In this document: positions 18,295 to 56,332 of the stretch, piece after piece | How the letters are laid out: every line of letters begins with the position of its first letter | Position numbering within the stretch: the first letter of the stretch is position 1 | DNA from: a virus | Direction: 5' to 3' (one strand) | Virus record (IMG/VR): IMGVR_UViG_3300020193_000004 | Location: 51,145 to 115,144 of that record | DNA length: 64,000 nucleotides | Translations under genes and position numbers: made by a program | The notes under the pieces: generated by a model | Databases searched by the model: none | Told to the model about the DNA's origin: nothing | Seen by the model: the letters and a program-made list of their open reading frames with translations, nothing else

Positions 18295-19706
18295 CAGACC
18301 GACAGCTCCTCGGCGAAGCGGATGACGTTCAGGGCGTCCTCGCCGAGCTGCCCGGCGGCGGCGAGGTCGGCGAGCGCCGCGTAGTCAGCCAGCGACGCGC
18401 GCTTCTCTTCCTGGAGGAAGGGCGAGCGTTTGGTGTCCACGTTGTACGGGGAGCCGCCCTTGTTGATGTTGACGTTGAACATGCCGCTGCCGGCAGCGCG
18501 ACGCCCCTCGCGCGCAGCCACGAGGTCGGCGAGCGCGGCGTGCTCCTGCCGCATGTGCCGCTTGTTGTACAGGTGGCTCGCGACGTCGGCGTGGAGGGCC
18601 GAAGGGTCTGCCGCCTCTTCGCGGGCCAGGCGTGCACGTAGCTTGCTCAGTCCGTACGTCGTCCCGCCCAGGAGTACGCCACCGGTCAGGGCGCCAGCGG
18701 CGGCGCCCGACAGCCCTGCGCGCCGGGCGGCCTCCAGAGCGGCCCCGCGGGCGATACCGTGCTGGAACCCGAGCAGGGCACCAACGGCTGCTCCCGGGTA
18801 GGCGCCGACGAGGGAGCCGAGCGCGGTGTTGCCACGTCGTGCTCTGTCGGAACCCTCCGCGCGGTTCTGGAGTCCCTGACGCAGCAGGTCTTCCCGCTCG
18901 GGCGCCGACATCCCCAGAGACTCCCGCGCTGCGCGTATCTGCGTGTTCCCACGAGACATCTGCGCTTCGCCGCCGAACCAGTCGTGCTTGGGAGGGTCGC
19001 CCGCGTCGGCCACCTTCAGCCCACCCTTGGCGGTGGCCATCGGGAAGGCCGCCTCGGCCGCCGCGCGGGAGGCACCGGTGTCATCGGCGTGGGCGAAGAG
19101 CTGCGCGAGGCGGGCGCGGGTCGGGAGCTTCGCCTCGCGCTTGGTGGCGTTGACGATGTCCTGGACCGAGCGGAGCATCTCGATGTTCGTGTTCTCGTTC
19201 CTCGCCGGAGGTGCGGCGGCGTTCTCGCCGGACACACTCTGCTGGGGACCCGGGATCGCACTGGTGTCCGCCCGCTTGGTGATGAGGTCGAAGAGGGTCA
19301 TCGGGGCGCCGGCCTTCTTGGTGCCGGTCTGGTCCAGGGTGGCCTGGGTACCAGTCGGGGCCTCGCTCTCCGGAGGAGACTCGCCACAGGGATGGCCGGT
19401 CGGGAGGATCTTCTTCGAGCCGGACTGGGGCGGCACTGCCTGGGTTCCGGTCGGTGCCACGCTCCGGGCCGGGCCCGGGATCGCCGAAGTGTCGGCGCCC
19501 TTGAAGAACTGCTCGACCACGCTCCGGCGTACTGCCCCGGCGACGGAGCCGTCGTCGACGGCACTCATGGCGATGAACTCGTTGGCGTCTGCCAACTCGT
19601 GTGCGAGCTTCACGAGATCGCCGCCCGGGGCGGCCGCGGTCTTCGTCCCCCCGGCGGAAGCACGCGCCTTGTTGAGCGCGGCGTCGATGATGTGCTGTAC
19701 CGACAT
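18294..19706 (-). CDS. Scaffold/core-like protein with KxA motifs and a Gly-zipper insert
   Basis: Start MSVQHII (19706); KTAA, KLAH, KGAD/KRAD each followed by TSAIPGP, KVAD, KRAS. Confidence 0.65.
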   Translation of the reverse strand: MSVQHIIDAALNKARASAGGTKTAAAPGGDLVKLAHELADANEFIAMSAVDDGSVAGAVRRSVVEQFFKGADTSAIPGPARSVAPTGTQAVPPQSGSKKILPTGHPCGESPPESEAPTGTQATLDQTGTKKAGAPMTLFDLITKRADTSAIPGPQQSVSGENAAAPPARNENTNIEMLRSVQDIVNATKREAKLPTRARLAQLFAHADDTGASRAAAEAAFPMATAKGGLKVADAGDPPKHDWFGGEAQMSRGNTQIRAARESLGMSAPEREDLLRQGLQNRAEGSDRARRGNTALGSLVGAYPGAAVGALLGFQHGIARGAALEAARRAGLSGAAAGALTGGVLLGGTTYGLSKLRARLAREEAADPSALHADVASHLYNKRHMRQEHAALADLVAAREGRRAAGSGMFNVNINKGGSPYNVDTKRSPFLQEEKRASLADYAALADLAAAGQLGEDALNVIRFAEELSV

Positions 19707-30500: not shown

Positions 30501-30662
30501 GCGCGCCTCCTTCAGTGCCTCGCTGAACTCCCAGTCCGCCGCGTCAGGGGTCGGAGGCTCGTAGTCCCAGGGCTCCGCGTAGTCCAGGAGCGTCGTGTCC
30601 TCGCACTCCTGCTTGACGAGGCGGAAGACGTCGAGGGGATCCTGACGATCTGAAAGATTCAC
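27576..30662 (-). CDS. terL: Terminase large subunit (GpA-like) interrupted by an intein
   Basis: RQVEK/STT Walker A once spliced; RGLRADLVALDE Walker B; SGTP; Cys pairs; GIDWG nuclease motif; DDSFHA. Confidence 0.9.
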   Translation of the reverse strand: MNLSDRQDPLDVFRLVKQECEDTTLLDYAEPWDYEPPTPDAADWEFSEALKEARSLLAVSPSQFVETSVMMPDAETKSLRSFDFSERPYLRRIYDTPHKRILLKCARQVEKSWVETTFLRSADGTFKQVKDVELGDELVCLKTDEAEPGVERGYGHRTTTSEVTWKSRRYQKPCVRVRTRQGHASEMATTHPVRVWAGWRDASDVRVGDRIAVVRQAGVFLAEPQPESRVRLTAFMIGDGSCAAKALRFTNASYAVLDDFDRALCDEGMSYTFQDDPRSRAVDFQLPRYSAQKLYDWFDEDGLLGTSSYTKFVPDWVFQLSREQTALFLNRLWSTDGHVKMNHATKWSIEYCSMSQRLVLQVQSLLHKFGIPSCIRENWPNIYKKRGEKKLAYILRVETQEGIRAFVREIGALDKIECQELEPWESNSNTDTYPPEVTQLVREVYAAVQPRKGDRTLRSCGIARLPPDEYCLTKDKLAQFVEFFRGDERYDQAHVDLLEAHLDSDVYWDEVQAVEDLGEQWCYDLTVADHHNCVAGAIVTHNSTTLGNRILASSCLIPHFRTLYVSPSAQQTQEFSKTRIRETLETSPDLRKWFPIHLTDNVFEKKAINRSTVTLRYAFLNADRCRGLRADLVALDEIQDILLENIPVIEEAASHSPYRYFIYSGTPKSNDNPIEHYWSNFSTQNEWGVPCERHGTPKDPGSWHWNILGELNIGKLGLICDKCGGPIDPAHPLAQWVRTGSPDPTLSVYEGYRIPQLMVPWIDWKDLYTKYNDYPRAMFFNECLGLSYDSGQRPLTAADIQINCDEQMRLLPEIVKLWREKLNGIPLYGGIDWGQDSTKSHTVMKIGGYYQGRFRVIYAYRFIGADTDIRVQMDKICRLIDTFQLARVGVDYGGGLHPNDELLRKYGSQRIVRFQYSTPSVFMKWDSQLGRYIIHRSEVMSAIFNAIKRGTVYKFPAWKDFAAPYAADMLSIFSEYNEHMHMTQYKKSSNNTDDSFHALLFLTCVSMLDTPRPDIFVPSAAIDRRLES
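29037..30329 (-). mobile_element. Intein (431 aa) with LAGLIDADG endonuclease
   Basis: Begins SWVETTFLRSADG; block B TTHP; FMIGDGS and LWSTDGH; ends CYDLTV..HHN...IVTHN followed by S. Confidence 0.9.
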
Positions 30663-42385: not shown

Positions 42386-43729
42386 CTATACCATGTAGTC
42401 GATCTGGACGGTCTGCCCGGCGGGGATAGACGCGCCCCACTCGATCTTCGTGGCGCCGCCCTCCTCGATCACGCGGTACTCGTCGATGCTGGCCGGGACG
42501 CCCGTGACGAACCTGGCACGCTGCCCGTTGCGGAAGGCATGGATACCCGGGTAGTGTGCGGCGGGGACCACGTTCACCAGCGCGTGCTTCGTGGCGTTGC
42601 CGCCGTCCAGCGACTCGGCCTTCGCGCGGGCACCGATCTTGGCGAGGGTCACGGCGTCGTTGGCGAGGTCGCCGGTCGCGATGGCACCAGCCGCGAACTT
42701 ACCCGCGCCGATGGTGCTCGAGGCGATCTTATCGTTCGTGATCGCGAGGTTGCGAATGTGGTTCGTGGTCACGGCGCGGTCGGCATCGGTAGCCACGCTG
42801 TCCTTCAGCTTGCCCGCGTCCACCGCGTCATCCGCGATGTCAGCCGTGGCAATGCTGCCCGCAGCGTACTTCCCGGCGCTGACGCCGCCGTTGGCGATCT
42901 TCGCGCCGCTCACGGCAGAGTCGGCCATGTCGGCGTTGGCGATGCTACCCGCCGCGTACTTCCCGGCCACGACCGCGCCGTTCGCGATCTTCGTGGACGA
43001 GATCGCGGAGTCCTTGACGTGGTTCGTGGACACGGCGCGGGCGGAGTCATCGGCAGCGGAGGACGAGAGCTTGGCGCTGGTGACGGCGTCGGCGGCCAGG
43101 AGGCTGGTGACGATCTGCCCGGCGGCGAGCTGCGCGGCCGACTTGTCAACCATGGCGACGGTCGCGTCATCCCAGACCGGCATGTCGTTCAGGTCGAAAA
43201 TCTGCGCGTAGGCGAAGACGAACGGCGATGCCATCGTGTAGGCGATCTCGGTCCCGCTGCCGAACTCGCCGCTGAAGAAGCGGAGGGTGTAGCTGCCCGC
43301 CGTGGTGCGGGCGGAACAGGAGATCACGCCCCAGACCTCGCGACCGACGCTGTCCACGATGGCATCGCCGCTCGCGTCCATGATGGGCACCTTGCTGCTG
43401 CGGGCGCGAGCGTTCGCACCGACCTTGCCGGTCGTGGTGTTGAACTCGTTGCCGTTCGCCGCTTCCAGGAGAGCATCCTTGCCCTTGGCGACACCCTCGG
43501 GGTCCACGCCCGCGGCGCTGTCGAAGCCCAGCAGGGTCTTGACGTTCATCGTGCTTGCGGAAGGGCTCGCCTGCTCCGCGACCTGGACCCAGCGGCCCAC
43601 CAGCTTCGACTGGAGTGCGCTGGCCTTCGCGTCGGCGGCGAGCTTGGCGCCCGTGATGGAGGCGTCGGCGAGTTTGCTGGTGGTGACGCTGCTGTCGGTG
43701 TACTGGTCGGTGACAAACTGGAGAGGCAC
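42386..43729 (-). CDS. Fibre-like structural protein with AVTxxK[IL]A repeats
   Basis: Repeated SVTTSKLAD, ITGAKLAA, AVTSAKL, AISSTKIA, AITNDKIA; C-terminal FRNGQR beta module. Confidence 0.65.
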   Translation of the reverse strand: MPLQFVTDQYTDSSVTTSKLADASITGAKLAADAKASALQSKLVGRWVQVAEQASPSASTMNVKTLLGFDSAAGVDPEGVAKGKDALLEAANGNEFNTTTGKVGANARARSSKVPIMDASGDAIVDSVGREVWGVISCSARTTAGSYTLRFFSGEFGSGTEIAYTMASPFVFAYAQIFDLNDMPVWDDATVAMVDKSAAQLAAGQIVTSLLAADAVTSAKLSSSAADDSARAVSTNHVKDSAISSTKIANGAVVAGKYAAGSIANADMADSAVSGAKIANGGVSAGKYAAGSIATADIADDAVDAGKLKDSVATDADRAVTTNHIRNLAITNDKIASSTIGAGKFAAGAIATGDLANDAVTLAKIGARAKAESLDGGNATKHALVNVVPAAHYPGIHAFRNGQRARFVTGVPASIDEYRVIEEGGATKIEWGASIPAGQTVQIDYMV

Positions 43730-43778: not shown

Positions 43779-44531
43779 CTACGTCACGGCGACGATGTAT
43801 TCTACCTCGATGCTCTCCAGGGCGGAAGGGGTCAAGCCCTCCAGTAGCTCAAATGTCGATGCGCTTGCCTCCGCGAAGTCAACGCCGGTTAGGAGCCGCT
43901 GACCGTTCCGGTAGACGCGCATGGAACCGGTGACAGCGGGCTCGGGTAGCACGAAGACCTGCGTCTCCCCGTCGCACTGCTCGGACAGGTCGGACGACTT
44001 CAGCACCGCGTTCGGTCCGGTGATCCCGTACTCGGCTTCCAGTGCCTGCCCCGCGCCGGGGATGAACGAAAATGCGTCCAGCGTGACCAGCGCCCCGGCG
44101 ACGGTGAAGTCTCGCCCGGGGATCAGCCGCTGTCCGTTCCAGTACAGGCGCACCGTGGTCGCGGCGGCCGGGGTCTCGGGCAGGTCGAAGGTGATTGTCG
44201 CTCCGTCGCACTGCGCCGACAGGTCCGCAGACTTCCACTCCAGGCTCGCGTAGTAGATAACTTGTGGTTCCCCGAGGGGCTGGTAGAACTCGGCGTAGTC
44301 TTCTGACTGCGCGGAAACGTCGCCTGAGCGGCTGAACACGCTGGTCACGGGGGCCGCGGTCACGGGGACCTGCGCCTCCTTGATCGCGTCGAAGAGCCAC
44401 GTGGCGAGCGCCTGCGCATAGCCGGTCCTGTACCGGCGCTTCTCCTCCGCGCTCCACTCGGCGAAGCCCGGAGTGTACTGCTCCATCGCCGCGATCAGCG
44501 CCTTGCGCAGGGAGTTCTCGCTGACCGCCAT
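43779..44531 (-). CDS. Structural protein with two tandem beta modules
   Basis: DLSxQCDGxTxxFxLPE...Y.NGQRL..G.DF repeated twice. Confidence 0.65.
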   Translation of the reverse strand: MAVSENSLRKALIAAMEQYTPGFAEWSAEEKRRYRTGYAQALATWLFDAIKEAQVPVTAAPVTSVFSRSGDVSAQSEDYAEFYQPLGEPQVIYYASLEWKSADLSAQCDGATITFDLPETPAAATTVRLYWNGQRLIPGRDFTVAGALVTLDAFSFIPGAGQALEAEYGITGPNAVLKSSDLSEQCDGETQVFVLPEPAVTGSMRVYRNGQRLLTGVDFAEASASTFELLEGLTPSALESIEVEYIVAVT

Positions 44532-45706
44532 CAGTCCGTCTCCAGCTTTTGCGCGGTGTAGGCCTGCGCGCCGAGGGAGGCAGCGTGCTTGTCGATATTC
44601 GTGGAGGGCAGGCCGAGCGCCTTCGCCAGCGCGGAGACCTCGGTCCAGGCAGCCGCTGCGTCGGCGCTGAAACTCAGGTCGAAGAGAGCGCGCGCGGTCC
44701 CGTTCCCCACCTTCACCTTGTCTCCGGTGTGCGTGACTGCCAGCCCCGCTGCCGTGGTGGTGACGGAGGTGTCCGCGTCCAGAGTGACCGTACCATCGGT
44801 GTTGACCGTCAGCGTGACGGTGCTGCTCCCGAGGATTTTGATGACGGTCTTGCCCTTCGTGGTGAGCTCGATCTCTCCACCCTTGTTGATCGCGAGGGAC
44901 GAGGCTGCTGTGAGGTCCGCCTCCTCGACGTCCCCGTCCTCGTAGACGCGGAGGCGGACAACCGGGCCCGCGAGCTCGACGCTGTCCGGAGGTGCGCCGC
45001 TCTCGCCGGCCTCTCCATCAACCGCACCCTCAGTCGTGGCGTCGAGGGACCCACCCACCTGCAGACGCGCTGCGTAGGCCCGGTCGTCCGCGTACTCCTT
45101 CATCTTCAGGTCGAGTCGCGTCGCCTGGTGACCGTCCGGGTCCGACTCCGGGCGGTCGACCTCCCAGCGGGCAGACCCGCCGAACACGTCGAGCTTCGCC
45201 ACCTGGCAGATCGAGTGGATCGTGCTCGTGCGTCCGAGGTAAAGCGTGCGCGCGAGAGGGCCGCCGAAGATCTCCGTCACCTGGCCACGCCGAACGAACA
45301 GGCCGTTCCGGTCTCGGCCGAAGATGGCCATGTCGCCGGGGCCCATGCGCGGGCGGTTGTTCGTCGCCGACGGCTTGTTCTCGTCGCTCGAGGTGGCGAC
45401 GGAGCGGCTCGGATAGGGGCGGTACGCGACGATGAAGGGTGGCGAGTCCCCCTCGCTCGGTTCGCAGACCTGCACCAGCGCGCCGATGTCGGGCATGACA
45501 TACATGCCCTCCCCGTTCAGCAGGTGCAGGTAGCTACCGCCGAGCGGGACGTCGTACAGGACCTTGGAGACGTCTGTCCCCTCCGTGCGGACGATGCACG
45601 TCCAGCGGAGGGGATCGACGTCGATGATCTTCCCCGCCAGGATGATCGCGCCGCTGGGAGGTCCGCTGCTGGAGCTCCCGCGGTGTGCCCGCCTCGCGGT
45701 GGTCAT
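44531..45706 (-). CDS. Putative baseplate spike/hub protein (gp5/GpV-like)
   Basis: GKIIDVDP..WTC.V; G...MPDIGALV.V OB-fold-like pattern; beta-strand repeats near the C-terminus. Confidence 0.6.
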   Translation of the reverse strand: MTTARRAHRGSSSSGPPSGAIILAGKIIDVDPLRWTCIVRTEGTDVSKVLYDVPLGGSYLHLLNGEGMYVMPDIGALVQVCEPSEGDSPPFIVAYRPYPSRSVATSSDENKPSATNNRPRMGPGDMAIFGRDRNGLFVRRGQVTEIFGGPLARTLYLGRTSTIHSICQVAKLDVFGGSARWEVDRPESDPDGHQATRLDLKMKEYADDRAYAARLQVGGSLDATTEGAVDGEAGESGAPPDSVELAGPVVRLRVYEDGDVEEADLTAASSLAINKGGEIELTTKGKTVIKILGSSTVTLTVNTDGTVTLDADTSVTTTAAGLAVTHTGDKVKVGNGTARALFDLSFSADAAAAWTEVSALAKALGLPSTNIDKHAASLGAQAYTAQKLETD

Positions 45707-45712
45707 GCAGGC

Positions 45713-46072
45713 CTACTGCTGGCGCCGCGGTGCGGTCATGCGGCCGGCGAGGACGCCCGCGCCTCCGGCACCGATCATGCCGGCGCCAGCGAGCCCCGCG
45801 ACGCCCGCGGCCGTGCCGGGGTTCGCCGCGATGCCCCTGCCGAGGTTGCGCACGCCCTGGCCCGCTTCGTGGAGCCACGTCGTGCCCCGCGTAGGAACCC
45901 CCTGGCTCGCCTGGTACGCCGTGCGCTGCATCGCACCGCCGAGGCGCCCAACCTGGTGTCCCACCCACTTTGCACCGCTGGTGACGGCCTCGCCGACGGG
46001 CGCGAAGCTGATGGCCTCCTTGTCGAAACCCGCTTCCTTGTAGATCTCGTAGACGTGGGCGACCTTGTTCAT
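45713..46072 (-). CDS. Small Gly-zipper protein with KVAHVYEIY leader
   Basis: MNKVAHVYEIYKEAGFDKEA; AAGVAGLAGAGMIGAGGAGVLAG. Confidence 0.7.
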   Translation of the reverse strand: MNKVAHVYEIYKEAGFDKEAISFAPVGEAVTSGAKWVGHQVGRLGGAMQRTAYQASQGVPTRGTTWLHEAGQGVRNLGRGIAANPGTAAGVAGLAGAGMIGAGGAGVLAGRMTAPRRQQ

Positions 46073-49000
46073 CGACGTACTCCAGCGGCGGGTGAGGGTG
46101 CAGAGATAGCACGCGGCGGGCGTGTTCCGAACTCCGCTCCGTGCGCGAGCCCCGGGATCGGGTGCTCGTGGATGTTGGACTTCCAGCCCTGGGCGGCACC
46201 CTCGGTGTAGGTGTCCTTCAGGCGCTGGTAGTTGAGGCGCGCCATCCAGTCCTCGGTGCCGCTGAGCGGGACCTGGGTCATGGCGCGGAGCACCGGTGCG
46301 TGCGAGACCGTCTCGTGCCCTTCGGCTTCGGCCTCCGCGTTGTGCGCCTCGACGGCAGACAGCGGCACGACCTCGCCGCGACGGAACGGGCTGGCGTGCG
46401 GGGCATCGTGGATCTCGGCGAGGTTCGTCATCCCCCGCACGACGGTCTCGATGTTCCGCTGCCGCACCATCCCCTGGTAGGCTGTGGCCACCTCGTCCGT
46501 GATGTAGTTCCGGACGCGCCCGATGCTCTTCGTGTGGTGCAGCAGCTCGTGTGGATCCGTGGGGCCCGTGGAGAGCGCATCGCCGCGATGGACGCGAGCG
46601 CCGACCTTCACATGCTCGAGCAGGTGCCCGGTCACCACGCGGTGGGGCTTGCCTTCAATGACCACGGTGAATCCGCCGAGGGCGTCCGTGGAGATCTTCT
46701 CGACCACGCCTCCGACCGTGGCCAGGGTGGCGCGGTCCGGGAGCTTGTCCGGCAGCATGAACAGCTGCTTCACGCGCTTGAAGGAGTCGACAGCGGTCTT
46801 TGCCCCCGAGACGCCTCCCGTGTGGAAGGTCTTCATCGTGAGCTGGGTGATCGGCTCACCGAGCGCCTGGCCTGCGATGACCCCGATGTTCGTCCCGACG
46901 GCGTGCAGGGCCCCGCGCTCCGAGTGCCCATAGCACTTCGCACAGATGCCGCGCGGCATCCGGCAGAACAGCGGGGAGCGCGCCACTACCTCCTGCACAC
47001 CAGCGTTCCGCAGCTGAGAGACCAGCGCCGGCGTCACGAGAGTGCCCGCGGGGATGGCATGGCCGTCCGGGAGCTTGACGTCGGTGGCGAGGAAGCGGTC
47101 GACCAGGTCCACTGCGCCCACGCTGACCGTCTTGCCGGCCGTGGCCCCGCAATCTTCGCCCGTGATCTGGATGCCCATCGTGGTGTTCACGATGTCCTTC
47201 GTCACGGCACCAGGCTCCTTGGTGCCCTGCGCGCGGTCGATGGTGCCCTTGCGAGCACCGTGCATCGACGCCCAGTACTCGGAGACAGACAGTCCCTCAC
47301 CGAAGGACTTGGTGATGGGGACCGGCACGGGACGCTTCATCAGGTCGTCGACGAGGATGGGGGCGACGGTCAGCTGCGAGAACTGCCCCCAGTTGCCGCG
47401 CGCACCGGCCTGCGCCCACTCCCACACGCGGTTGTCACCCTGGTTGTAGCGGACCACCCCGAGCTGCTTCAGCTCGGCCTGTGCGTCCTGGTAGAGCTTG
47501 ACGATCTCCTGGTCACGCTTCCGGCTCGACATCGGCGTGGCGTGCAGCTTCTTCTCCTGCTCCCGGTACTTCTTCAGGACCTGGTCGCGGAACGCCGCGC
47601 CGTCGTGGAAGTCGTCGATCGAGAAGGAGCTCCCGTTCTTGAACGACATGGTGTTGCCCAGGTCCTTCCACGCATCGACGACGTGCGGGAAGGCCTGCTC
47701 GTGCTCCTTGCCAACGCGCGTGAGTAGCGCCTTCAGCCGCCCCGAGTCGAGGCGGAACGCGGGGTCGTGCAGGAGCTGCTCATGCTTCGCCATCTCGCCG
47801 GGAAGGTGCGCGGCCAAGGCCAGTCGACCGGGAGTCGTCTTCTTCCCATCGACCGTGATCACGTCCGACGGCTTCAGCTTCCCGTCGTGCATCATCTGGA
47901 CGGCCCGCTCGGCCGTGAGACCGGCGGGGGTCTTCGCCTCTTCGCCCCACTTGGTAGACTGGAAGAGCCCAAGCAGGGAGTCCTGATCGGGCACCGTCAT
48001 GAGTCCATAGGTAGTGGGCGAGAACAGGTTCTTGGAAGGGAGGACCTTCCGGGCCTCGTCGACCGCCTGCGGAGAGACGGGCACGTAGAGGGCCATCGTG
48101 TCGCCGTCGAAGTCCGCGTTGAAGCCCTTGGTCACCAGTGGGTGGATCTTGATGGCGCTGCCGTCCACGATCTTCGGGTTGAACGCCATGATGCTGAACT
48201 TGTGCAGGCCGGGGTCGCGCTTGAGGAACACCGGGTGGTCCGCGACGGCGCGCTCGAGTGCCGCGAGGACCTGAGGGTGGTCCCGCTTCTCGGTGGCCCA
48301 CTTGAGCGCGTCGATGTGCGTCTTCCCGCCCCGCACGAGCTCGCGGATCACGAAGGGCTTGTACATCTCCATAAGGATCGGGCGCGGGACTCCGACCTCG
48401 TCGAGCCCAAGCGTCGGCTCAGGGACGATCGTCGAGCGTCCGGAGAGATCCTGGCGCCGCGCAAGCACACCCTCCTGGAAGAAGCTCTCCTTCGGAGCCC
48501 CGCGATCCTCCGTCTTCCCGGAGAGGAGCTCCATGAGCCCCTGCATGTGCCGCGGCTTGCCGGTGCCTGCGGGAGAGGTCATGCCCTCGACACGGAGCGC
48601 CCTGATGCTGTTGTAGAGCTCAGCGCGTGCCTTCTGGGCCCCGGCGTGCGTCGACGACTTGTCGAGGTTCTTGAGGATGCCGTTGTTGTACCCGACGTTC
48701 AGGTACAAGGGATTCCGGTCGTCGGTCACTTGCTTGCCGTCGAGCCCGATGGACACGCGACGCACCGCGGGCGGCAGCACGGGCAGGTGCTGGTTCGTGT
48801 AGGCCTCGAGGGGCGACATGTCGTGCGCCTTGAGGGCCTCGAGGTACCGGATCTTCTTGAGCCCGCGGTTCAGATCGGTCCTGCTCGCCGTGGCCAGCTT
48901 CGCCTGCTCCGCCTTCAGTTCCTTGTCCACGTCGATGGCGGACAGCCGCGCGTTGATGATGTGGAACCCTGACTTCCCGCCGACCAGCCCCTTCTCGCTG

Positions 49001-49278
49001 GTGAGCATGTCGTATTCCTTCTTCGTCAGGCCCGTCAGGTTCTGGATGGCCCCCTCGAAGATGGGGTTCGGCATGCGCTCGGCGAGCGTCACGTGGCTCC
49101 AGAACTTGCCCTGGAGGCCGCCCGTGACGCGCGGGTCGAACAGGCCGCCCGACTCTTCGACGGTCCGCGCCCCGCGAGCGACGGTCTGCTTCTCCGGGAG
49201 CCGGATCTCTCCGTTCGAGATGCCGTGGATGCCGCGCTTCGTGTCGCCCAGCAGGTGCGCGTCCGTCATCGGCATCAT
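46069..49278 (-). CDS. Phage multisubunit RNA polymerase, beta'-like subunit
   Basis: FNADFDGD catalytic motif; LPVLPP, R.D.SGRS.I, R.P.LH, HGARKG, GEPITQLTMKTFHTGG, RSPLFC...CAKCYG. Confidence 0.95.
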   Translation of the reverse strand: MMPMTDAHLLGDTKRGIHGISNGEIRLPEKQTVARGARTVEESGGLFDPRVTGGLQGKFWSHVTLAERMPNPIFEGAIQNLTGLTKKEYDMLTSEKGLVGGKSGFHIINARLSAIDVDKELKAEQAKLATASRTDLNRGLKKIRYLEALKAHDMSPLEAYTNQHLPVLPPAVRRVSIGLDGKQVTDDRNPLYLNVGYNNGILKNLDKSSTHAGAQKARAELYNSIRALRVEGMTSPAGTGKPRHMQGLMELLSGKTEDRGAPKESFFQEGVLARRQDLSGRSTIVPEPTLGLDEVGVPRPILMEMYKPFVIRELVRGGKTHIDALKWATEKRDHPQVLAALERAVADHPVFLKRDPGLHKFSIMAFNPKIVDGSAIKIHPLVTKGFNADFDGDTMALYVPVSPQAVDEARKVLPSKNLFSPTTYGLMTVPDQDSLLGLFQSTKWGEEAKTPAGLTAERAVQMMHDGKLKPSDVITVDGKKTTPGRLALAAHLPGEMAKHEQLLHDPAFRLDSGRLKALLTRVGKEHEQAFPHVVDAWKDLGNTMSFKNGSSFSIDDFHDGAAFRDQVLKKYREQEKKLHATPMSSRKRDQEIVKLYQDAQAELKQLGVVRYNQGDNRVWEWAQAGARGNWGQFSQLTVAPILVDDLMKRPVPVPITKSFGEGLSVSEYWASMHGARKGTIDRAQGTKEPGAVTKDIVNTTMGIQITGEDCGATAGKTVSVGAVDLVDRFLATDVKLPDGHAIPAGTLVTPALVSQLRNAGVQEVVARSPLFCRMPRGICAKCYGHSERGALHAVGTNIGVIAGQALGEPITQLTMKTFHTGGVSGAKTAVDSFKRVKQLFMLPDKLPDRATLATVGGVVEKISTDALGGFTVVIEGKPHRVVTGHLLEHVKVGARVHRGDALSTGPTDPHELLHHTKSIGRVRNYITDEVATAYQGMVRQRNIETVVRGMTNLAEIHDAPHASPFRRGEVVPLSAVEAHNAEAEAEGHETVSHAPVLRAMTQVPLSGTEDWMARLNYQRLKDTYTEGAAQGWKSNIHEHPIPGLAHGAEFGTRPPRAISAPSPAAGVRR

Positions 49279-52200
49279 GACGTATCGTCGCCACGCTTCT
49301 CGGTGTTCACCCCCATGGCGCGTAGGTAGTGCTGGAAGTTGGTCATCCCACGCGAGGGCTGCGGCGGCGGGAGCGGACTCCCGGAGATCACGGCGGCCCA
49401 GGCGGCGTGCTGGTCCCCGTCGCTCTTGAAGGTGTAGGCCTCCCGGAGGTTCTGGTTCGCACCGTGCGCGAGCATCGCGTACGTCGTGAGCATGTCCATC
49501 TTCTGCCCGCCGCCAGGGACGCCGGAGCCCTTCGGGGCCTCCCCGGAGTGCGTGTAGCCGGTCGCGAAGGACCGACCGGTCATCTTCTTCTCGACCTGGT
49601 GATGCAGCTGCATCATGTACTGCTTGCCGACCATCACCTGCCCGACCGAGCGTCCGGTCTCCGGGTCGATGAGCTCTTCCGTATCGGAGAGCCCGTACCG
49701 TGCCAGATCCCGCTTGACCTGCGCGGCGTAGTCGACGCCGGGCACGAAGTTCTCCACGACGTAGGGCTTGCCGGTCTTGTCCGCGATCTTCGACGCGGCC
49801 GTCTCGAGCACCTGCCCCACGTTCATACGGCTGGGCACGCCCGCGGGGTTCAGGAGGACCTCGACGTGCTGCCCGTCCTTCGTGTGGGGCATCTGGGAGT
49901 CGGGGACGATGCGGCTGATGATGCCCTTGTTGCCGTGCCGCCCCGCCATCTTGTCACCGATCTCGAGCGGCTTGGACGTCTTCACGTGGACCGCGATCTG
50001 GCGCCGGTTCAGAGTCTCGTTGACGATGATCTTGACTACGGTCCCGGAGTACGGGTGGTCCCACAGGAGCGACACGTCCTTGTAGGGCTTCGCGAGGGAC
50101 TTGTGGATGCGCGCAGCGATCTTGTCGTCCTCGCTCATCTGCTTCGGGCTGAGGACGGCCACGAGGATGTCGCCGGTGTGTACAGGCGTCCCCTCCTTCA
50201 CGATCCCGCGGTCGTCGAGCTTGGCCAGGTGCTCCGGCGAAGCCGCGGCAGGGGTCGCGTAGTCCGCCCAGCGCGCCTTCGACCCGCCGGTGCCGCCGAG
50301 CATGCTCGCGTAGACCGTGATCTCCGAGACGTGCAGGTGGTCCGACGCCATCTTCTGCGCGGCGGACTCGGACACGACGATCCCGTCCTCGAAGGTCAGA
50401 CCCTTCCACGGGATGTAGGCCACCCGCAGATTGGCCCCCATCGCGAGCGCGCCGCCCTTCGTGTAGTTCGTGTCCGCGAGCAGCGTGCCCTTCTGTACGG
50501 TGTCGCCCGCCTTCACGAGCGGTGCAGCGTGGAGCGAGTTCTTCCCCCCGTTCAGCGGGAAGTGGTTGTAGACCGGGACCGCCACGGAGCCCGTGGGCGT
50601 CTGGACATGGATGGCGCCCGGCTCCACCTTCCTGACCACGCCGGCCACGGGCGACGTGTGCGAGACGAAGGAGCCCACAACCTGCTCGAAGGTCTGGGCG
50701 CCGTCCGTCTTCACCTGCACGAGCGGAGCTTCCCGGTGCACCAGTGCGAGCGCCTGCTCCTGCTGCTTGGCAGCCATCATGGCGCGGTTGCCGTTGTCGT
50801 TCTGGAGGAACGGGATGAGGTTCGCACTGAAGGAGAGCAGGGCCTTCGACGACGGGAGCACGTACCGGACCTTCGCCCAGGGACGCTTCGACGTGCGACG
50901 CTCCTCGTCGTAGCAGACGACCTCGTTCGACACCGGCTCGGGCATGCCCCGCACCCAGCGCACCTGGTCCGGGTAGGCCACGATGGCGTGCTCGAGGTCC
51001 GCCGGCGAGGCCAAGATCATCTTCCCCGTCTTCGTGTCGAAGACCTTTGTGCGTAGGTCCTGGCCGGAAGACGTCTTGCTCTTCGAGCCCTCGCGCACGT
51101 CGGCACGCGACATGTGGATCCCCAGGGGCAGGTTCAGCGCGATCCCGGTGTCCTCTCCCTCTGGGGTCTGGATCGGATCGATGAACCCAAGGTGCGTGGG
51201 GTTCAGTTCCTTGTCGGGGTCGAGGTTGATCTTGTCACTGCCGACGCCGCCAAAGTCCTTGCCGCGGATCGTCGTCCGCATGTGCCCCGAGAGGAACTGG
51301 AGCGGGTTGGTCTGGTCGGGCCGCTGCGCGTGGGCGAACGGTGCCAGGACGACCTTGTTGTAGGTGTTCGGCGACATGATCTGGTCGATGCCGTACTCGG
51401 GCTTGTCGATCCGGTCGCGCACCTGGCGCCGCAGCAGCGTCTCGTGATGGCGGATGGCCTCCACGACGAAGTCCTCGGTCGTGGTCAGGTACTTGGCCGA
51501 CAGCGCCTGTCGATCATCGGGGAGCTCGGACGGCGGCGGGTCTTCCTTCGTGCGTCCCTTCTGGATGTCCAGGAGCCGGCGCGAGGATGCGAGGAGGTTC
51601 TCGCCGTTGACGTTGGAGGACTCCCTGCCGAACGCCGACTTCATCGCGTCTGGCCAGACCTCGGTCTCCCTGTCGAAGTACTCGCGGACGCGCTGGGCAC
51701 GCGCCTGCGGCGTCCCGTGCGACCGGTCCTCGAGGCGCAGCCCGAGCGCTGCGAAGAGCTTGTCCACGTCCTTGTCGAGGTGGACCGCCTTCGTGTTGGC
51801 GGCGTAGACGGCGTTCCCCCAGGCGTGCTCGATCTCCGCATCCGTGACACCGAGTGTGCGAAGCACGGAGTAGAGCGGCAGGTTCGAGGTCCCCACCGAG
51901 AATGTCATCTTGCCGGCCTTGGGTTCGTAGCCGATGTCGAACCCGCGGCCGCGCGCCAGGTTCCAGCGCCCCTGGAGGTCGCCGTTGCCCGCAATGCGGT
52001 GGTAGGGGCGGGGCTTCGAGCGGAAGACGCTGTCGTGCTGTCGCTCCTGCCCCTCGATGATGTAGGAGTACCGGCGCGTCATCTTCGGGAGGCGTGCGAG
52101 CGTGACGAGCTTCTCCTCCACGAGGGCACCGCTCGTCTTGTCAACGAGACGCAGTCGTGCCCGGACCGGCACGCCCCAGGTCATACCGGTCGTCCGCGCG

Positions 52201-52385
52201 CGGAACTGCTCCTCAAGGTTGTCGACGTGATGGATGTCGGAGGAGATGGCCGCGCGGTCGTCGAAGACGATCTCAGCCAGCTCCAGCCGCCGCCGCGCCC
52301 CCTCGAACGGGAACTGCGCGCGGATCGCCTCGGCGGCGCGCTCCTTGAGACTCTCGAAAGCGGCTTCTGGGTTAAGGTTCGGCAT
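49275..52385 (-). CDS. Phage multisubunit RNA polymerase, beta-like subunit
   Basis: LPKMT, DPIQTPEG..G, LIPFLQNDNGNRAMM...Q.QA, G.TFEDG, GDKMAGRHGNKG, LNPAGVPSRMNVGQ, GGQK; start moved to MPNLNP (52385). Confidence 0.95.
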   Translation of the reverse strand: MPNLNPEAAFESLKERAAEAIRAQFPFEGARRRLELAEIVFDDRAAISSDIHHVDNLEEQFRARTTGMTWGVPVRARLRLVDKTSGALVEEKLVTLARLPKMTRRYSYIIEGQERQHDSVFRSKPRPYHRIAGNGDLQGRWNLARGRGFDIGYEPKAGKMTFSVGTSNLPLYSVLRTLGVTDAEIEHAWGNAVYAANTKAVHLDKDVDKLFAALGLRLEDRSHGTPQARAQRVREYFDRETEVWPDAMKSAFGRESSNVNGENLLASSRRLLDIQKGRTKEDPPPSELPDDRQALSAKYLTTTEDFVVEAIRHHETLLRRQVRDRIDKPEYGIDQIMSPNTYNKVVLAPFAHAQRPDQTNPLQFLSGHMRTTIRGKDFGGVGSDKINLDPDKELNPTHLGFIDPIQTPEGEDTGIALNLPLGIHMSRADVREGSKSKTSSGQDLRTKVFDTKTGKMILASPADLEHAIVAYPDQVRWVRGMPEPVSNEVVCYDEERRTSKRPWAKVRYVLPSSKALLSFSANLIPFLQNDNGNRAMMAAKQQEQALALVHREAPLVQVKTDGAQTFEQVVGSFVSHTSPVAGVVRKVEPGAIHVQTPTGSVAVPVYNHFPLNGGKNSLHAAPLVKAGDTVQKGTLLADTNYTKGGALAMGANLRVAYIPWKGLTFEDGIVVSESAAQKMASDHLHVSEITVYASMLGGTGGSKARWADYATPAAASPEHLAKLDDRGIVKEGTPVHTGDILVAVLSPKQMSEDDKIAARIHKSLAKPYKDVSLLWDHPYSGTVVKIIVNETLNRRQIAVHVKTSKPLEIGDKMAGRHGNKGIISRIVPDSQMPHTKDGQHVEVLLNPAGVPSRMNVGQVLETAASKIADKTGKPYVVENFVPGVDYAAQVKRDLARYGLSDTEELIDPETGRSVGQVMVGKQYMMQLHHQVEKKMTGRSFATGYTHSGEAPKGSGVPGGGQKMDMLTTYAMLAHGANQNLREAYTFKSDGDQHAAWAAVISGSPLPPPQPSRGMTNFQHYLRAMGVNTEKRGDDTS

Positions 52386-52410
52386 CTGTGAAGAGCGCTC
52401 CACTACTGGC

Positions 52411-52416
52411 CATAAG
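52411..52416 (+). promoter_or_regulatory. CATAAG candidate promoter element
   Basis: Divergent gap upstream of a plus-strand island. Confidence 0.45.
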
Positions 52417-52436
52417 AGCCATGACGGAGGTAGCCT

Positions 52437-52688
52437 GTGACTCAAAGTTCTACCACGCCCCGGAAGCGCGCGCTGCATGACAAGACGGCGGGGGCGCACC
52501 GGTCCACCCTGTCAGAGTTCGCGAGTTTGGTACACCAGATGGTATCGGGGCCGATGGCCCAGGAGGATGTCGTAGATGAGCACGCTCGAGTGGATGCTCC
52601 TGTTCGCCTTCATCAGCGGGGTGGCCACCGGCCTCGCGGAGTACGGGGCCGGGCTGTTGCCGCGGATTGGAAGGAAGAGACGGAGTAG
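52437..52688 (+). CDS. Hypothetical protein (an overlapping 40-aa hydrophobic ORF at 52576-52698 is an alternative)
   Basis: GGAG upstream of GTG; reading frame ambiguous. Confidence 0.35.
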   Translation: MTQSSTTPRKRALHDKTAGAHRSTLSEFASLVHQMVSGPMAQEDVVDEHARVDAPVRLHQRGGHRPRGVRGRAVAADWKEETE

Positions 52689-52690
52689 GT

Positions 52691-53086
52691 ATGCCTGAGC
52701 GCCGCAAGGCGTCACCCCTGCGAGAACTACGCGATCAGCTGAGTCCGCGAGTACGCCGGGCGCCGACAGCACTACGGGTAGATCCAACACTGCCTGGTGA
52801 GGCAGGTGAAGAGACGCTGGTCTTCTGCCCGAAGCTGAAGCACGCAACGCAGTACCTGCGCCGGCGGCTGCCGCCGGGGCGGTACAACCGCGGCGGGATG
52901 TGTGGGGACGTGAACTGCGGCAGGTGCCCCGTGCTGTTGGCAGATCTGGAGGAGCGATCGCCCGACTACGCGTGGGTGTGCTCCTCGTGCACGGACGGGT
53001 TCTACATCGAGCCGTACTGGACTGACGGGGCCTGCGTGGCCTGTGGCTTCCAGAGCTCGGTCTTGATGCTCGCCACCCCCAGGTAG
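52691..53086 (+). CDS. Cys-rich (Zn-binding) hypothetical protein
   Basis: CGRC, CSSC, CVAC; GGAG RBS; start ATG 52691. Confidence 0.6.
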   Translation: MPERRKASPLRELRDQLSPRVRRAPTALRVDPTLPGEAGEETLVFCPKLKHATQYLRRRLPPGRYNRGGMCGDVNCGRCPVLLADLEERSPDYAWVCSSCTDGFYIEPYWTDGACVACGFQSSVLMLATPR

Positions 53087-53153
53087 GGGAGCGAGTCCGA
53101 CCTCCGCAGCAATATCTGGCGTAACACGGCTATAAGATAATCAGGAGGTAGAA

Positions 53154-53360
53154 ATGGTGGACAGCCTGATGACGTGGATGTGGTTCTTCACGACCGGACC
53201 CATCTCGACCATAAGAACAGTTTTGAGAGCTATGAGGCGGCCGCCTCATCAGGAGGGACCGCCGCCTCATCAGGAGGGACCGCCGCCTCATCAGGAGGGA
53301 CCGCCGCCTCATCAGGAGGGACCGCCGCCTCATCAGGAGGGACCGCCGCCTCATCAGTAG
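53154..53360 (+). CDS. Small ORF ending in (PPPHQEG)n
   Basis: AGGAGG RBS and upstream TATAAG; the C-terminal half is the tandem repeat. Confidence 0.45.
   Translation: MVDSLMTWMWFFTTGPISTIRTVLRAMRRPPHQEGPPPHQEGPPPHQEGPPPHQEGPPPHQEGPPPHQ
53240..53357 (+). repeat. Perfect 21-bp tandem repeat GCCGCCTCATCAGGAGGGACC, 5.6 copies, overlapping an 18-bp palindrome (53232-53249)
   Basis: Seen directly. Confidence 0.95.
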
Positions 53361-54193: not shown

Positions 54194-56332
54194 TTAACCT
54201 CCCACTGCCCGGCTTGCGTCGACCTGCGCACCGGACCGTGGCGTGATGGGGGACTTGAGCGGGTCTAACGGGTTCCGCGCCGAGCCGCTGCTGTTCAGCA
54301 GCTGGATGACCATCTGGTAGAGCTGCGGGCTCTCCATCTGCAGCTTATTGAGCTCCTGGTACATCAGCTGCTCGCCGCCGGGCTGCTGCTTCAGCGTGTT
54401 CATGTAGGCAGCGACACGCTGGGCGACGTAGCGCATGTCGAAGCCGCCCTGTCCCATCTGCAGCGTGGACTCGAGACCCGCCATCGGGGTAGGCCCTCGG
54501 GATGCGTTGGGGGTCGCCGCGTTCTCGTCGTAGAGCGTTGCCCCCTCGGGCACCCCCGGGGTCTGCTGCACGGCGTCCTGCCCAGGTGCACCCGCGGGTG
54601 CACCTGGCGCTGCTCCGGGGGCTGCCTCGGGCTGCTGCGCACCTGCTGCTGGATCGCCAGCTGCGGGAGCACCGCTGGCTGCCGCTGCCGCCGGATCGCC
54701 CGCAGGCGCGGCACCGGGGACCATCCCCATGGCCGCCTGCTCCTGCTGGATGTCCATCTGCGTGGAGGCCTGCGCCTTCATCGTGATCTCGGTCGCCTTG
54801 GCCTGGTACCGCGACGTACGGAGCATTGCGGCGCCCTGGATGTCGGCAGACGCGAGCTGCGTGGCGCGCTGGGTCGTGACCTGCTTCCGCATCTCGGCGG
54901 TGAGCCGCGCCTGCTCGGTGTCGAAGTCCTCGCCGATCTCCTCGAGCAGACGCTGGTCGGAGACCTTGCTCGCCTGGTTGAGCTGGAAGTAGAACATCGC
55001 CCGCTGCAGGTCGTCCGCCATGCGGAACTTCTCGAAGCGGAAGGGGATGCGCGGCCACCCCATGTGGGAGGCGACTTTGTCGATGACAAAGCGCGTGAGG
55101 TTGTACCGCTCCTTGTTGTAGCCCAGGAAGGTGTTTTCGAGAGCGCGCAGCGAGGTATTGGAGCTCGACCACTGCAAGCCGCCGTAGACGAACTCTACGG
55201 GGATGCCTGCGCCCGCCAGCATCGCCTCGGCGTGAATGCGGAACTCCTGGTGCAGGATGAGCGCCTTCGCCTGCCCGCCGATCTGCTGGTACCCGATGTT
55301 CATCGGGAGGATCGGGATGTAGTTATGGTCCCGCTTCCACATCGCCATCTCGACCTCGACCTTCTGCTTCCAGTTGACGAGGTTGTACGCGCCGAAGGGT
55401 CCATCGTTGCCGCCGGTGGTGGGCCCGGGGAAGATGATGCGCAGGGGAACGACGTGTTCGAGAAGCAGACTCTCCTGGGCCTTCTTCATGACCTGCATGT
55501 AGAAGGCGTCCTTGAGGAGCGGGAAGATCAGCGGCATCCCCCAGCCCTGGTCCTTCTGGGCGATGGTGGGGCGCTTCAGGTGGAAGAAGTTGTCGGGGTG
55601 GAACAGGAGCGCGCGGTTCGTGCGCGCCGCCTCGAGGAACTGGTAGGGGAGGGTCTCGATCGTCTCGGGGTCGCCGAGCCGGACATCGTTGACGACGCTC
55701 CTCGGCAGGCGGAAGTAGTACCGGCTGTTGCCGGTGATCTCGTTGTACTTGATCTCGATGTTCTCGGGGTTCCAGCGGACGAGGCGGGCCCCTCGCGCGT
55801 TGCGCGGGTAGTTGTCGGCCTGGTCGGCGTAATCCTCGACAGCGCACTTCGGGCAGTGCAGGTAGAACCGGCCCCCGCGCCACTTGTAGCGGCTCCGGTT
55901 CTTCGAGGCACGCACCCGCTCCTGGCAGTGTCTGCAGATGAGGTACTTCTCCAGCTGGAAGAAGACGCTGGCGAAGGCGTTGCCGTAGACGAAGTAGTCC
56001 AGGCCGATCTCGACCTGGAACTGCCGCAGCTTCAACTGCTCCTCGAGGTCGAGGTACAGCTTCCCGAGCTGGTCGTCGTCTGTCTCCCAGACCAGCGGCG
56101 TCACCGGGTACTCCGCCATCTTCTGGCAGGCGACGTTGATCACCGGGTTCGTGAGGAAGTAGTACCGACACCAGGTGTGCAGCTGGTGGACGTTCTCGGG
56201 GAGGAACTGTTGAGCGACGTCGAAGAACGGAGACGGGTAGCGGACGCCGTACCCGCGGCTCGTCCAGTAGGACGTGGCCTGGCGCGGGGTGAAGCGGCTG
56301 GCGTCGCCGCCGAGGACACCGATGCTCATCAC
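54194..56332 (-). CDS. Portal protein with Zn-finger insertion and low-complexity C-terminal linker
   Basis: CRYYFLTNPVIN..CQKMAEYP; IGLDYFVYGNAF; FFHLKRP....GWG.P; AGIPVEFVYGG. Confidence 0.8.
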   Translation of the reverse strand: MMSIGVLGGDASRFTPRQATSYWTSRGYGVRYPSPFFDVAQQFLPENVHQLHTWCRYYFLTNPVINVACQKMAEYPVTPLVWETDDDQLGKLYLDLEEQLKLRQFQVEIGLDYFVYGNAFASVFFQLEKYLICRHCQERVRASKNRSRYKWRGGRFYLHCPKCAVEDYADQADNYPRNARGARLVRWNPENIEIKYNEITGNSRYYFRLPRSVVNDVRLGDPETIETLPYQFLEAARTNRALLFHPDNFFHLKRPTIAQKDQGWGMPLIFPLLKDAFYMQVMKKAQESLLLEHVVPLRIIFPGPTTGGNDGPFGAYNLVNWKQKVEVEMAMWKRDHNYIPILPMNIGYQQIGGQAKALILHQEFRIHAEAMLAGAGIPVEFVYGGLQWSSSNTSLRALENTFLGYNKERYNLTRFVIDKVASHMGWPRIPFRFEKFRMADDLQRAMFYFQLNQASKVSDQRLLEEIGEDFDTEQARLTAEMRKQVTTQRATQLASADIQGAAMLRTSRYQAKATEITMKAQASTQMDIQQEQAAMGMVPGAAPAGDPAAAAASGAPAAGDPAAGAQQPEAAPGAAPGAPAGAPGQDAVQQTPGVPEGATLYDENAATPNASRGPTPMAGLESTLQMGQGGFDMRYVAQRVAAYMNTLKQQPGGEQLMYQELNKLQMESPQLYQMVIQLLNSSGSARNPLDPLKSPITPRSGAQVDASRAVGG

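What the first reader, a model, noticed from the sequence alone, without database searches (positions are those of the whole stretch)
46069..52385. Streamlined two-gene beta/beta' RNA polymerase within the virion gene block
The subunits are bacterial-like but reduced (about 1036 and 1069 aa). Beta' lacks the N-terminal Cys4 zinc-binding domain (GLFDPRVTGGLQGKFWSHVTL runs straight through) while keeping the C-terminal Zn site. No alpha, omega or sigma gene is visible in the window. This differs from the multi-fragment phiKZ-type RNAPs, and its position between portal and baseplate genes suggests a virion-packaged enzyme.
Basis: partly seen in the sequence, partly recalled or inferred. Interest (0 to 1): 0.7.

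Follow-up and report, generated by a model that had tools for sequence, protein, structure and literature searches.

The report
Single-chain phage RNA polymerase, split by artefact
The two genes are really one gene for a slimmed-down bacterial-type RNA polymerase made as a single 2105-residue chain by a large uncultured lake phage; the apparent split is a one-base gap in this contig, and the enzyme belongs to a little-studied phage family that brings its own sigma factor and probably carries the polymerase in the virus particle.

Summary
The beta and beta' reading frames are real, at the stated coordinates. They have all catalytic motifs, lack the beta' N-terminal Cys4 zinc ribbon and keep the second zinc site.

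The "two-gene" layout does not hold. Contigs assembled independently from two lake-water runs carry one extra base at window 49284/49285. That base joins the frames into one 2105-aa beta-beta' chain. All 21 related IMG/VR loci also have a single ORF.

The missing sigma reflects a truncated contig (66% complete). A collinear, 99%-complete relative encodes a sigma70-family factor in the 47 kb that this contig lacks. Alpha and omega are absent even from complete relatives.

In a beta' tree the family is a well-supported clade, sister to Salmonella phage Arash and Vibrio phage D69. It lies inside no sampled bacterial group and is unlike the fragmented phiKZ type.

The gene sits between the portal gene and a central-spike (baseplate hub) gene in nearly all relatives. 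Arash virion proteomics detected the homologous polymerase and sigma. Packaging is therefore plausible but untested.

This scan has already met the same family, as a single chain, in other genomes. I found no paper describing the design beyond the Arash annotation.

The parts
46069..52385 (-). Single-chain beta-beta' RNA polymerase gene. It reads as two ORFs in the window and as one 2105-aa ORF once the base seen in independent assemblies is included.
49275..52385 (-). Beta module (1036 aa in the window's reading). Carries Rpb2_3 and Rpb2_6, the GDKMAGRHGNKG motif at 49923-49958 and the flap-tip helix at 50091-50138. Lacks E. coli SI1, SI2, residues 1-37 and 1169-1210.
46069..49278 (-). Beta' module (1069 aa). 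Carries Rpb1_2 and Rpb1_5. Lacks the zinc ribbon, SI3 and short N- and C-terminal segments.
49284..49285 (.). Frame-break site. The window lacks one base here. Logan contigs of runs X1 and X4 have an extra C (+ strand), which gives ...EKRGDEYVMMPMTD... in one frame.
49084..49146 (-). Place where the beta' N-terminal Cys4 zinc-binding domain is deleted (GLFDP...WSHVTL, beta' residues 45-65).
48583..48720 (-). Beta' clamp helices. In bacterial enzymes this coiled coil docks sigma region 2. It is retained at full length.
   Evidence: The docking role rests on established knowledge of bacterial RNAP.
48100..48120 (-). Catalytic NADFDGD motif (beta' residues 387-393).
46927..47160 (-). Second zinc site: Cys710 and Cys772/779/782, the only cysteines in beta'.
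54194..56332 (-). Portal protein gene (712 aa). It lies upstream on the same strand, and upstream of the polymerase in 21 of 21 relatives.
44531..45706 (-). Central spike / baseplate hub gene (391 aa, gpV/gp5/VgrG-like). It lies downstream of the polymerase in 19 of 21 relatives.
45713..46072 (-). 119-aa ORF whose start overlaps the beta' stop codon. It is lineage-specific (found only in the nearest relative). Function unknown.

Best explanation
Window 46069-52385 (minus strand) holds one gene for a single-chain, bacterial-type RNA polymerase core. A beta module runs head-to-tail, without a linker, into a beta' module, about 2105 residues in all.

The stop codon and ATGA restart in the window come from one missing base at 49284/49285. 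This is an assembly error or a minority allele.

The enzyme is a near-minimal core:
- It keeps both double-psi beta-barrel active-site motifs, the second zinc site, the clamp helices and the flap-tip helix.
- It has lost the beta' zinc ribbon and the proteobacterial inserts SI1, SI2 and SI3.
- It works without alpha and omega. I infer that the covalent beta-beta' link replaces the alpha-dimer assembly platform.

Promoter recognition is most likely supplied by the phage's own sigma70-family factor. The closest complete relative encodes it among virion genes, in the genome block that this contig lacks.

The gene lies in a late structural block between the portal and the central spike. The holoenzyme is therefore probably loaded into the capsid and injected with the DNA to start early transcription. 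Packaging and injection are inferred, not shown.
For: Identity as beta and beta': Pfam hits, PDB beta' matches at 1e-107 and the catalytic motifs.

Single chain:
- Logan contigs of X1 (depth 13.5) and X4 (depth 10, another sample and study) both add one base at 49284. They show no other difference over 1 kb.
- Adding that base gives one 2105-aa ORF whose junction, GDEYVMMPMTD, matches the relatives.
- 21 of 21 IMG/VR relatives have one ORF of 2046-2986 aa.
- It is the only frame break found in a long genuine gene when this contig is compared with its relative G001.

Streamlining: deletion maps against E. coli numbering.

No alpha or omega, even in genomes 99-100% complete. There is one polymerase copy only.

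Sigma:
- A homologue of Arash gp10 occurs in 4 of 4 relatives.
- A profile of that family hits only sigma70-family chains in the PDB, best E 5.7e-8 over regions 2-4.
- The AlphaFold model (pLDDT 78) hits only sigma factors.
- The gene lies in G001 54.3-101.8 kb, the block absent from this contig.

Phylogeny: the family clade has support 99/95. It is sister to Arash + D69 at 100/99 on a stem of 0.72.

Context:
- The portal - polymerase - central spike order is conserved.
- The sigma gene follows homologues of the Arash virion proteins gp6 and gp8.
- In Arash virions, gp206 had the highest spectral count, and gp216 and sigma gp10 were also detected (PMC10585845).
Against: Logan contigs drop rare variants, and X1 may be the contig's own source sample. 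The split allele could therefore be real at low frequency.

The sigma gene was not seen in this genome itself, only in relatives.

No expression, proteomic or biochemical data exist for this phage.

The Arash proteome listed 116 proteins, including ribonucleotide reductases. Detection there is weak proof of specific packaging.

The polymerase has no N-terminal leader and no enrichment of the Lys-x-Ala motif that earlier notes proposed as the head-protease signal (8 sites against about 12.5 expected).

No promoter motif was found.

The backbone of the tree is unresolved, so an ancient bacterial origin is neither shown nor excluded.
Confidence: 0.75

Rival explanations
1. The split is genuine in this phage genotype. 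A recent one-base deletion separated beta from beta'. The ATGA overlap allows coupled re-initiation, so the phage makes a working two-subunit enzyme.
For: The window itself reads this way. Two in-frame ATG codons sit at the break. Cellular enzymes work with separate subunits. The break does not lie in a homopolymer, which is unusual for an Illumina assembly error. The contig shows no other frame breaks in long genes. A Logan contig of run X5 ends exactly at 49284, as would happen at a variant site.
Against: Two independent assemblies have the fused form at full depth. 21 of 21 relatives, including two at 75-77% identity, are fused. No Shine-Dalgarno sequence is evident before the beta' ATG.
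Confidence: 0.15
2. The polymerase is not packaged. It is made during infection and serves only middle or late transcription, and its place beside the portal gene is a historical accident.
For: No leader or protease-site signature. There is only one polymerase set, so it must also work inside the cell. The Arash virion proteome is broad and may include carry-over of abundant proteins.
Against: The portal - polymerase - spike order is conserved in 19-21 of 21 loci down to about 40% identity, and portal adjacency also holds in Arash and D69. The Arash polymerase had the highest spectral count of all virion proteins. The sigma gene also sits among virion genes.
Confidence: 0.3
3. It is a recently captured host rpoB-rpoC pair that depends on host alpha and sigma.
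For: The closest non-phage matches are bacterial beta' (30-37% identity). The sigma-docking elements are kept.
Against: There is a clear score gap: family 435-1304 bits, bacteria about 375 bits from many phyla alike. The clade is well supported, on a long stem, and lies outside every sampled bacterial group. The zinc-ribbon loss and the fusion are family-wide. The lineage has its own sigma.
Confidence: 0.03
4. A programmed -1 ribosomal frameshift at the junction yields both free beta and the fused chain.
For: A -1 shift at GAC GAT | AC would give GDDYVMM..., in register with the relatives.
Against: There is no slippery heptamer. The relatives need no shift. The read assemblies simply contain the extra base.
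Confidence: 0.02

Closest known systems
RNA polymerase of Salmonella phage Arash (gp206 + gp216, sigma gp10; OQ632216; PMC10585845) and of Vibrio phages D69/D148/D181
   Same: Sister clade in the beta' tree (100/99). The gene sits right after the portal gene. Beta is fused to beta'. The gp10-type sigma occurs in the relatives, with the same gp6-gp8-sigma micro-synteny. No alpha.
   Different: Arash and D69 fuse beta only to the N-terminal half of beta' and encode the C-terminal half separately. Here the whole beta' is in the chain. Identity is only 28-35%. The Arash enzyme was annotated and detected in virions but never characterised.
phiKZ / AR9-type multisubunit RNA polymerases of jumbo phages (PMC7598289, PMC4666361)
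   Same: Phage-encoded beta/beta' homologues that work without alpha and omega. One set is virion-packaged for early transcription.
   Different: Those enzymes are split into 4-5 polypeptides and come as two paralogous sets. They have no sigma homologue (gp68 or gp226 serve instead) and are far more divergent (about 23-26% identity over the barrel, very long branches). Here there is one chain, one copy and a sigma70-family partner.
Natural rpoB-rpoC fusions of Helicobacter and Wolbachia, and engineered E. coli beta-beta' fusions (from my own knowledge of the literature; not tested here)
   Same: Beta is joined head-to-tail to beta' in one functional polypeptide.
   Different: The cellular fusions keep alpha, omega, the zinc ribbon and the lineage inserts, and they are housekeeping enzymes.
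Virion RNA polymerases of N4-like and crAss-like phages
   Same: The proposed strategy is the same: a polymerase made late, packaged and injected to transcribe early genes.
   Different: N4 vRNAP is a T7-like single-subunit enzyme. The crAss gp66 type is a very divergent two-barrel enzyme with no recognisable beta/beta' sequence similarity and no sigma70 partner.

Membership tests
Bacterial-type multisubunit RNAP large subunits (beta/beta') | Beta and beta' domain set with both double-psi beta-barrel active-site motifs | tested here: met
   Pfam Rpb2_6, Rpb2_3, Rpb1_2 and Rpb1_5 above cut-off. NADFDGD and GDKMAGRHGNKG present. PDB beta' matches at 1e-107.
Bacterial-type multisubunit RNAP large subunits (beta/beta') | Beta' N-terminal Cys4 zinc-binding domain | tested here: not met
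   About 32 residues (E. coli 64-97) are absent in all family members aligned.
Canonical bacterial core enzyme (alpha2-beta-beta'-omega) | Alpha dimer and omega encoded or used | tested here: not met
   No PF01000 or PF01192 match in this contig or in relatives 99-100% complete, while all 14 control genomes matched. Use of host alpha cannot be excluded by sequence.
Sigma70-dependent holoenzyme | A sigma70-family factor plus retained docking sites (clamp helices, flap-tip helix) | tested here: inconclusive
   The sigma70-family gene is shown in 4 of 4 relatives, but it lies in the block missing from this contig. The docking elements are present. Binding is untested.
Arash/D69-type portal-adjacent phage RNAP | Monophyly with Arash and D69, and a position just downstream of the portal gene | tested here: met
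   Sister clade at 100/99. Portal is upstream in 21 of 21 loci and in Arash and D69.
Arash/D69-type portal-adjacent phage RNAP | Beta' split into an N-terminal half fused to beta and a separate C-terminal gene | tested here: not met
   The whole beta' is contiguous here and in all 21 relatives.
Arash/D69-type portal-adjacent phage RNAP | Presence of the polymerase in virions | not testable with these tools
   Only the Arash LC-MS data exist.
phiKZ/AR9-type jumbo-phage msRNAP | 4-5 fragments, two paralogous sets (virion and non-virion), no sigma homologue | tested here: not met
   One ORF. One copy in a complete relative. A sigma70-family factor is present. Separate placement in the tree.

The most novel reading that the evidence does not exclude
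This phage family carries a self-sufficient minimal bacterial-type holoenzyme: one beta-beta' chain plus one phage sigma70-family factor, with no alpha, no omega and no zinc ribbon. The holoenzyme is packaged in the capsid and injected, making early transcription independent of the host. It would be the simplest known sigma-dependent multisubunit-type RNA polymerase.
Probability: 0.45. Interest if true: 0.75.

Novelty: new variant of a known kind. Interest (0 to 1): 0.5.

Why it matters
Reviews from 2020 and 2026 describe phage multisubunit RNA polymerases as fragmented and lacking any sigma homologue (PMC7598289, PMC13282480). This family is the opposite design: one chain, sigma70-type initiation and no assembly subunits.

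If it is active on its own, it would show that a covalent beta-beta' link can replace the alpha platform. It would also give structural biology and synthetic biology a two-component bacterial-type transcription system. Finally, it would extend the injected-polymerase strategy to a widespread group of 130-190-kb aquatic phages.

For this window specifically, the practical lesson is that the "two-gene" feature should not be carried forward. It is a one-base discrepancy in the contig.

Tried and rejected
- PHROGs and Pfam on ten neighbouring ORFs gave almost nothing: a tail-fibre-like hit for 42386-43729 only.
- The Pfam Sigma70_r2 model misses the lineage's sigma, even in complete relatives. Only a search with the Arash gp10 protein found it.
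- A weak Sigma70_r4 hit at contig 18952-19047 (E 5e-4, an 85-aa frame) was not pursued. Similar weak hits occur in every relative.
- K-mer search for a shared promoter motif in intergenic DNA of this contig and G001 recovered only the Shine-Dalgarno sequence, because my gene calls left too much coding DNA in the set.
- The sigma70-consensus scan found 0 sites against 0.8 expected, and the terminator scan 4 against 6.1 expected.
- The Lys-x-Ala motif proposed in earlier notes is not enriched in the polymerase, and the polymerase has no N-terminal leader.
- The "moraphage" paper (PMC12619734) describes a different lineage without an RNA polymerase.
- Literature searches for a description of single-chain phage beta-beta' enzymes found only the Arash paper.
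- Run X6 covered only part of the stretch laid and did not reach the junction, so it says nothing.
Full report
WHAT THE SEQUENCE SHOWS

The window is the second half of a 115,144-bp IMG/VR viral contig: linear, 66% G+C, and 66% complete by CheckV. On the minus strand there are two long ORFs. One spans 49275-52499 and begins with GTG. Homology to relatives starts at the ATG at 52385, which gives 1036 aa. The other spans 46069-49278 (1069 aa). The two overlap by ATGA.

Pfam assigns Rpb2_6 (2e-66) and Rpb2_3 to the first ORF, and Rpb1_2 (1e-29) and Rpb1_5 (7e-24) to the second. The best PHROGs are two families of about 1200 aa labelled "unknown function". The best solved-structure matches for beta' are bacterial beta' chains at about 1e-107. 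The catalytic NADFDGD motif, the beta motif GDKMAGRHGNKG, the clamp helices and the flap-tip helix are all present.

THE ZINC RIBBON AND THE SIZE REDUCTION

I aligned the N-termini of seven family members and seven cellular beta' subunits. In the family, the stretch between GLF and the (M/W)(G/S)H(I/V) motif, which carries all four Cys of the zinc-binding domain (E. coli 64-97), is replaced by about four residues. This holds in every family member. The second zinc site is intact, and its four cysteines (710, 772, 779, 782) are the only cysteines in beta'.

Against Salmonella/E. coli numbering, the other missing pieces are:
- Beta': 1-21, 146-176, 552-568, 704-717, 823-832, 988-1168 (SI3), 1366-1375 and 1392-1407.
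- Beta: 1-37, 221-302 plus 336-351 (SI1), 934-1047 (SI2), 1129-1139 and 1169-1210.

Most of the reduction is therefore the absence of proteobacterial lineage-specific inserts. Beyond that there is a real loss of the zinc ribbon and of the termini.

In the rifampicin-pocket region, the column aligned with E. coli His526 holds Gly, and Ser531 aligns with Thr. This hints at insensitivity to the drug but is not a test.

THE SPLIT IS NOT REAL, OR AT LEAST NOT THE RULE

At the junction the minus strand reads GGC GAC GAT ACG TCA TGA. The beta' start, ATG ATG CCG, lies one frame over. Relatives read straight through with ...EK(K/R)GD(E/S/K)Y(V/T)(L/M)xP(M/L/I)TD....

I laid Logan's contigs of four lake-water metagenome runs on 48800-49800:
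- X1 (depth 13.5; possibly the source sample) carries one extra C behind + strand 49284 and no other difference.
- X4 (depth 10; a different sample and study) carries the same extra C and no other difference.
- The X5 contig stops exactly at that base.
- X6 does not cover it.

With that base inserted, the gene is one ORF of 2105 aa with the junction ...EKRGDEYVMMPMTD....

All 21 related loci fetched from IMG/VR, at 40-77% identity, have a single ORF of 2046-2986 aa spanning both modules. I also compared the 74 long ORFs of the closest relative with this contig. The junction is the only frame break in a long genuine gene. The contig is therefore not generally error-ridden, and I cannot say whether this base is an assembly slip or a minority allele. 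Either way, the dominant genotype of this phage and the whole family are single-chain.

SUBUNIT COMPLEMENT

Alpha (PF01000) and omega (PF01192) are absent from this contig and from five relatives, two of which are 99-100% complete. The same searches matched all 14 control genomes. There is one polymerase copy in this contig and one in the complete relative G001.

Sigma70_r2 gave no match anywhere. A search with the sigma annotated in phage Arash (gp10) found a homologue in 4 of 4 relatives but not here.

The contig is collinear with G001 (182,777 bp) and lacks the part corresponding to G001 54.3-101.8 kb. The sigma-like gene is at G001 63.5-64.6 kb, inside that missing part.

Evidence that the protein is a sigma70-family factor:
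- A profile of 18 homologues hits only sigma70-family chains in the PDB. The best E is 5.7e-8, and the match covers regions 2 to 4.
- The AlphaFold model (pLDDT 78) retrieves only sigma factors among its top 50 structural matches.
- Arash gp10 passes Pfam's Sigma70_r3 cut-off. The G001 homologue falls just below it.

In G001 the sigma gene follows homologues of the Arash virion proteins gp6 and gp8, the same order as in Arash.

PHYLOGENETIC POSITION

In the 5.8-billion-protein search, about 64 clusters scored 435-1304 bits (30-56% identity). Many of them carry both Rpb2 and Rpb1 domains. Cellular beta' from many phyla followed, all at about 375 bits.

I built a maximum-likelihood tree of the beta' core: 44 rows, 358 columns, LG+C20, with a Mollyvirus RPB1 as outgroup.
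- The single-chain family is a clade with support 99/95.
- It is sister to Arash + Vibrio phage D69 at 100/99, on a stem of 0.72 changes per site.
- The bacteria fall on one side of a branch, but support is weak (48/86) and the backbone is unresolved.
- The phiKZ-type, phiR1-37 and YerA41 subunits sit on very long branches elsewhere.

Whether the clade arose inside or outside Bacteria stays open.

GENOMIC CONTEXT

The 712-aa ORF at 54194-56332 is the portal (tblastn with Arash gp204, 1.5e-80).

The 391-aa ORF at 44531-45706 is a central spike or baseplate hub:
- The language-model search places it with Phage_base_V clusters at 0.96.
- Its AlphaFold model (pLDDT 69) best matches phi92 gp138, the R2 pyocin spike, P2 gpV and VgrG-like chains of contractile injection systems.

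The order g513 - g340 - portal - (variable) - polymerase - (variable) - spike holds in 18-21 of 21 loci. Arash and D69 also place the polymerase just after the portal gene.

The Arash paper reports LC-MS of virions. Gp206 (beta plus the N-terminal half of beta') had the highest spectral count of all proteins, and gp216 and sigma gp10 were also found. The authors themselves note that abundant enzymes might be carried over, and 116 proteins were listed (PMC10585845).

HOW IT MOST LIKELY WORKS

Shown:
- A complete catalytic core sits in one chain.
- No alpha or omega is encoded.
- The sigma docking elements are kept.
- The lineage has a sigma70-family factor.
- The position among late structural genes is conserved.

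Inferred:
- The covalent link substitutes for the alpha assembly platform. For phiKZ/AR9 enzymes this role is thought to be met by stronger subunit contacts (PMC7598289).
- The phage sigma directs the enzyme to phage promoters.
- The holoenzyme is packaged and injected to start the infection, and newly made enzyme continues transcription, since there is only one set.

The weak points are:
- There are no packaging data for this clade.
- The polymerase has no leader and no enrichment of the Lys-x-Ala motif that earlier notes on this genome proposed as the head-protease signal.
- I could not find a promoter motif.

COMPARISON WITH WHAT IS KNOWN, AND NOVELTY

The closest named relatives are Arash and D69. 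They differ in that the C-terminal half of beta' is a separate gene. phiKZ/AR9-type enzymes share the lack of alpha and omega and the virion strategy, but they are fragmented, duplicated and sigma-less. Natural rpoB-rpoC fusions of Helicobacter and Wolbachia share only the fusion (this rests on my own knowledge).

Neither the 2020 review of phage multisubunit polymerases nor the 2026 jumbo-phage review mentions a single-chain, sigma70-linked form. My searches found only the Arash annotation.

Earlier notes of this scan had already met the same family, as a single chain, in several other uncultured phage genomes. One note flagged this junction as one base from a fusion. I tested those points independently here.

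I class it as a new variant of a known kind. The specific "two-gene" claim should be dropped.

Noticed in passing
window 45713-46072 (-): The start of this 119-aa ORF overlaps the beta' stop codon. It has three Lys-x-Ala motifs in its first 20 residues (positions 3, 12 and 18) and is conserved only in the nearest relative, L005 (69% identity). It has no Pfam or PHROG hit.
   Followed up: partly
window 52386-53353: About 970 bp between the zinc-phosphoesterase gene and the polymerase start have no confident gene and no nucleotide similarity to the collinear relative G001. The portal-polymerase spacer varies among relatives. The phosphoesterase gene itself is present at this spot in only one of the 21 loci (L021); L024 has a homologue elsewhere.
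   Followed up: partly
L021 10001-15799 (contig of G002): The polymerase ORF is 2986 aa. The match to beta' breaks right after residue 394, just past NADFDGD, and about 880 extra residues follow. Other family proteins carry intein and LAGLIDADG Pfam domains, so these are probably inteins at the catalytic motif.
   Followed up: no
L008 5933-13156: The polymerase ORF is 2408 aa. The match to beta starts only at residue 396 of the query, so the N-terminal half of beta holds about 300 extra residues.
   Followed up: no
window 27576-30662 (-): The large-terminase ORF is 1028 aa, but the match to Arash TerL (533 aa) covers only 27660-29039. About half of the ORF is extra sequence. The alignment with G001 also breaks inside it.
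   Followed up: no
window 1518-4343 (-): The homologue of the Arash virion helicase gp217 (E 4e-52) is only one part (2913-4250) of a 941-aa multi-module protein.
   Followed up: no
G001 68148-89260 (block missing from this contig): Downstream of the sigma gene, the complete relative encodes four very large proteins in a row (2446, 823, 1614 and 1883 aa). They would also be expected in the unsequenced third of this phage.
   Followed up: no
phage collection records: Several records labelled as phages are evidently host contigs that carry ordinary rpoB and rpoC. Examples are 'Staphylococcus phage SA 1306 Kay', 'Listeria phage LM 4-11-1', 'Acinetobacter phage MD-2021a' and two Salmonella WGS contigs. 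They inflate the apparent number of phage hits.
   Followed up: partly
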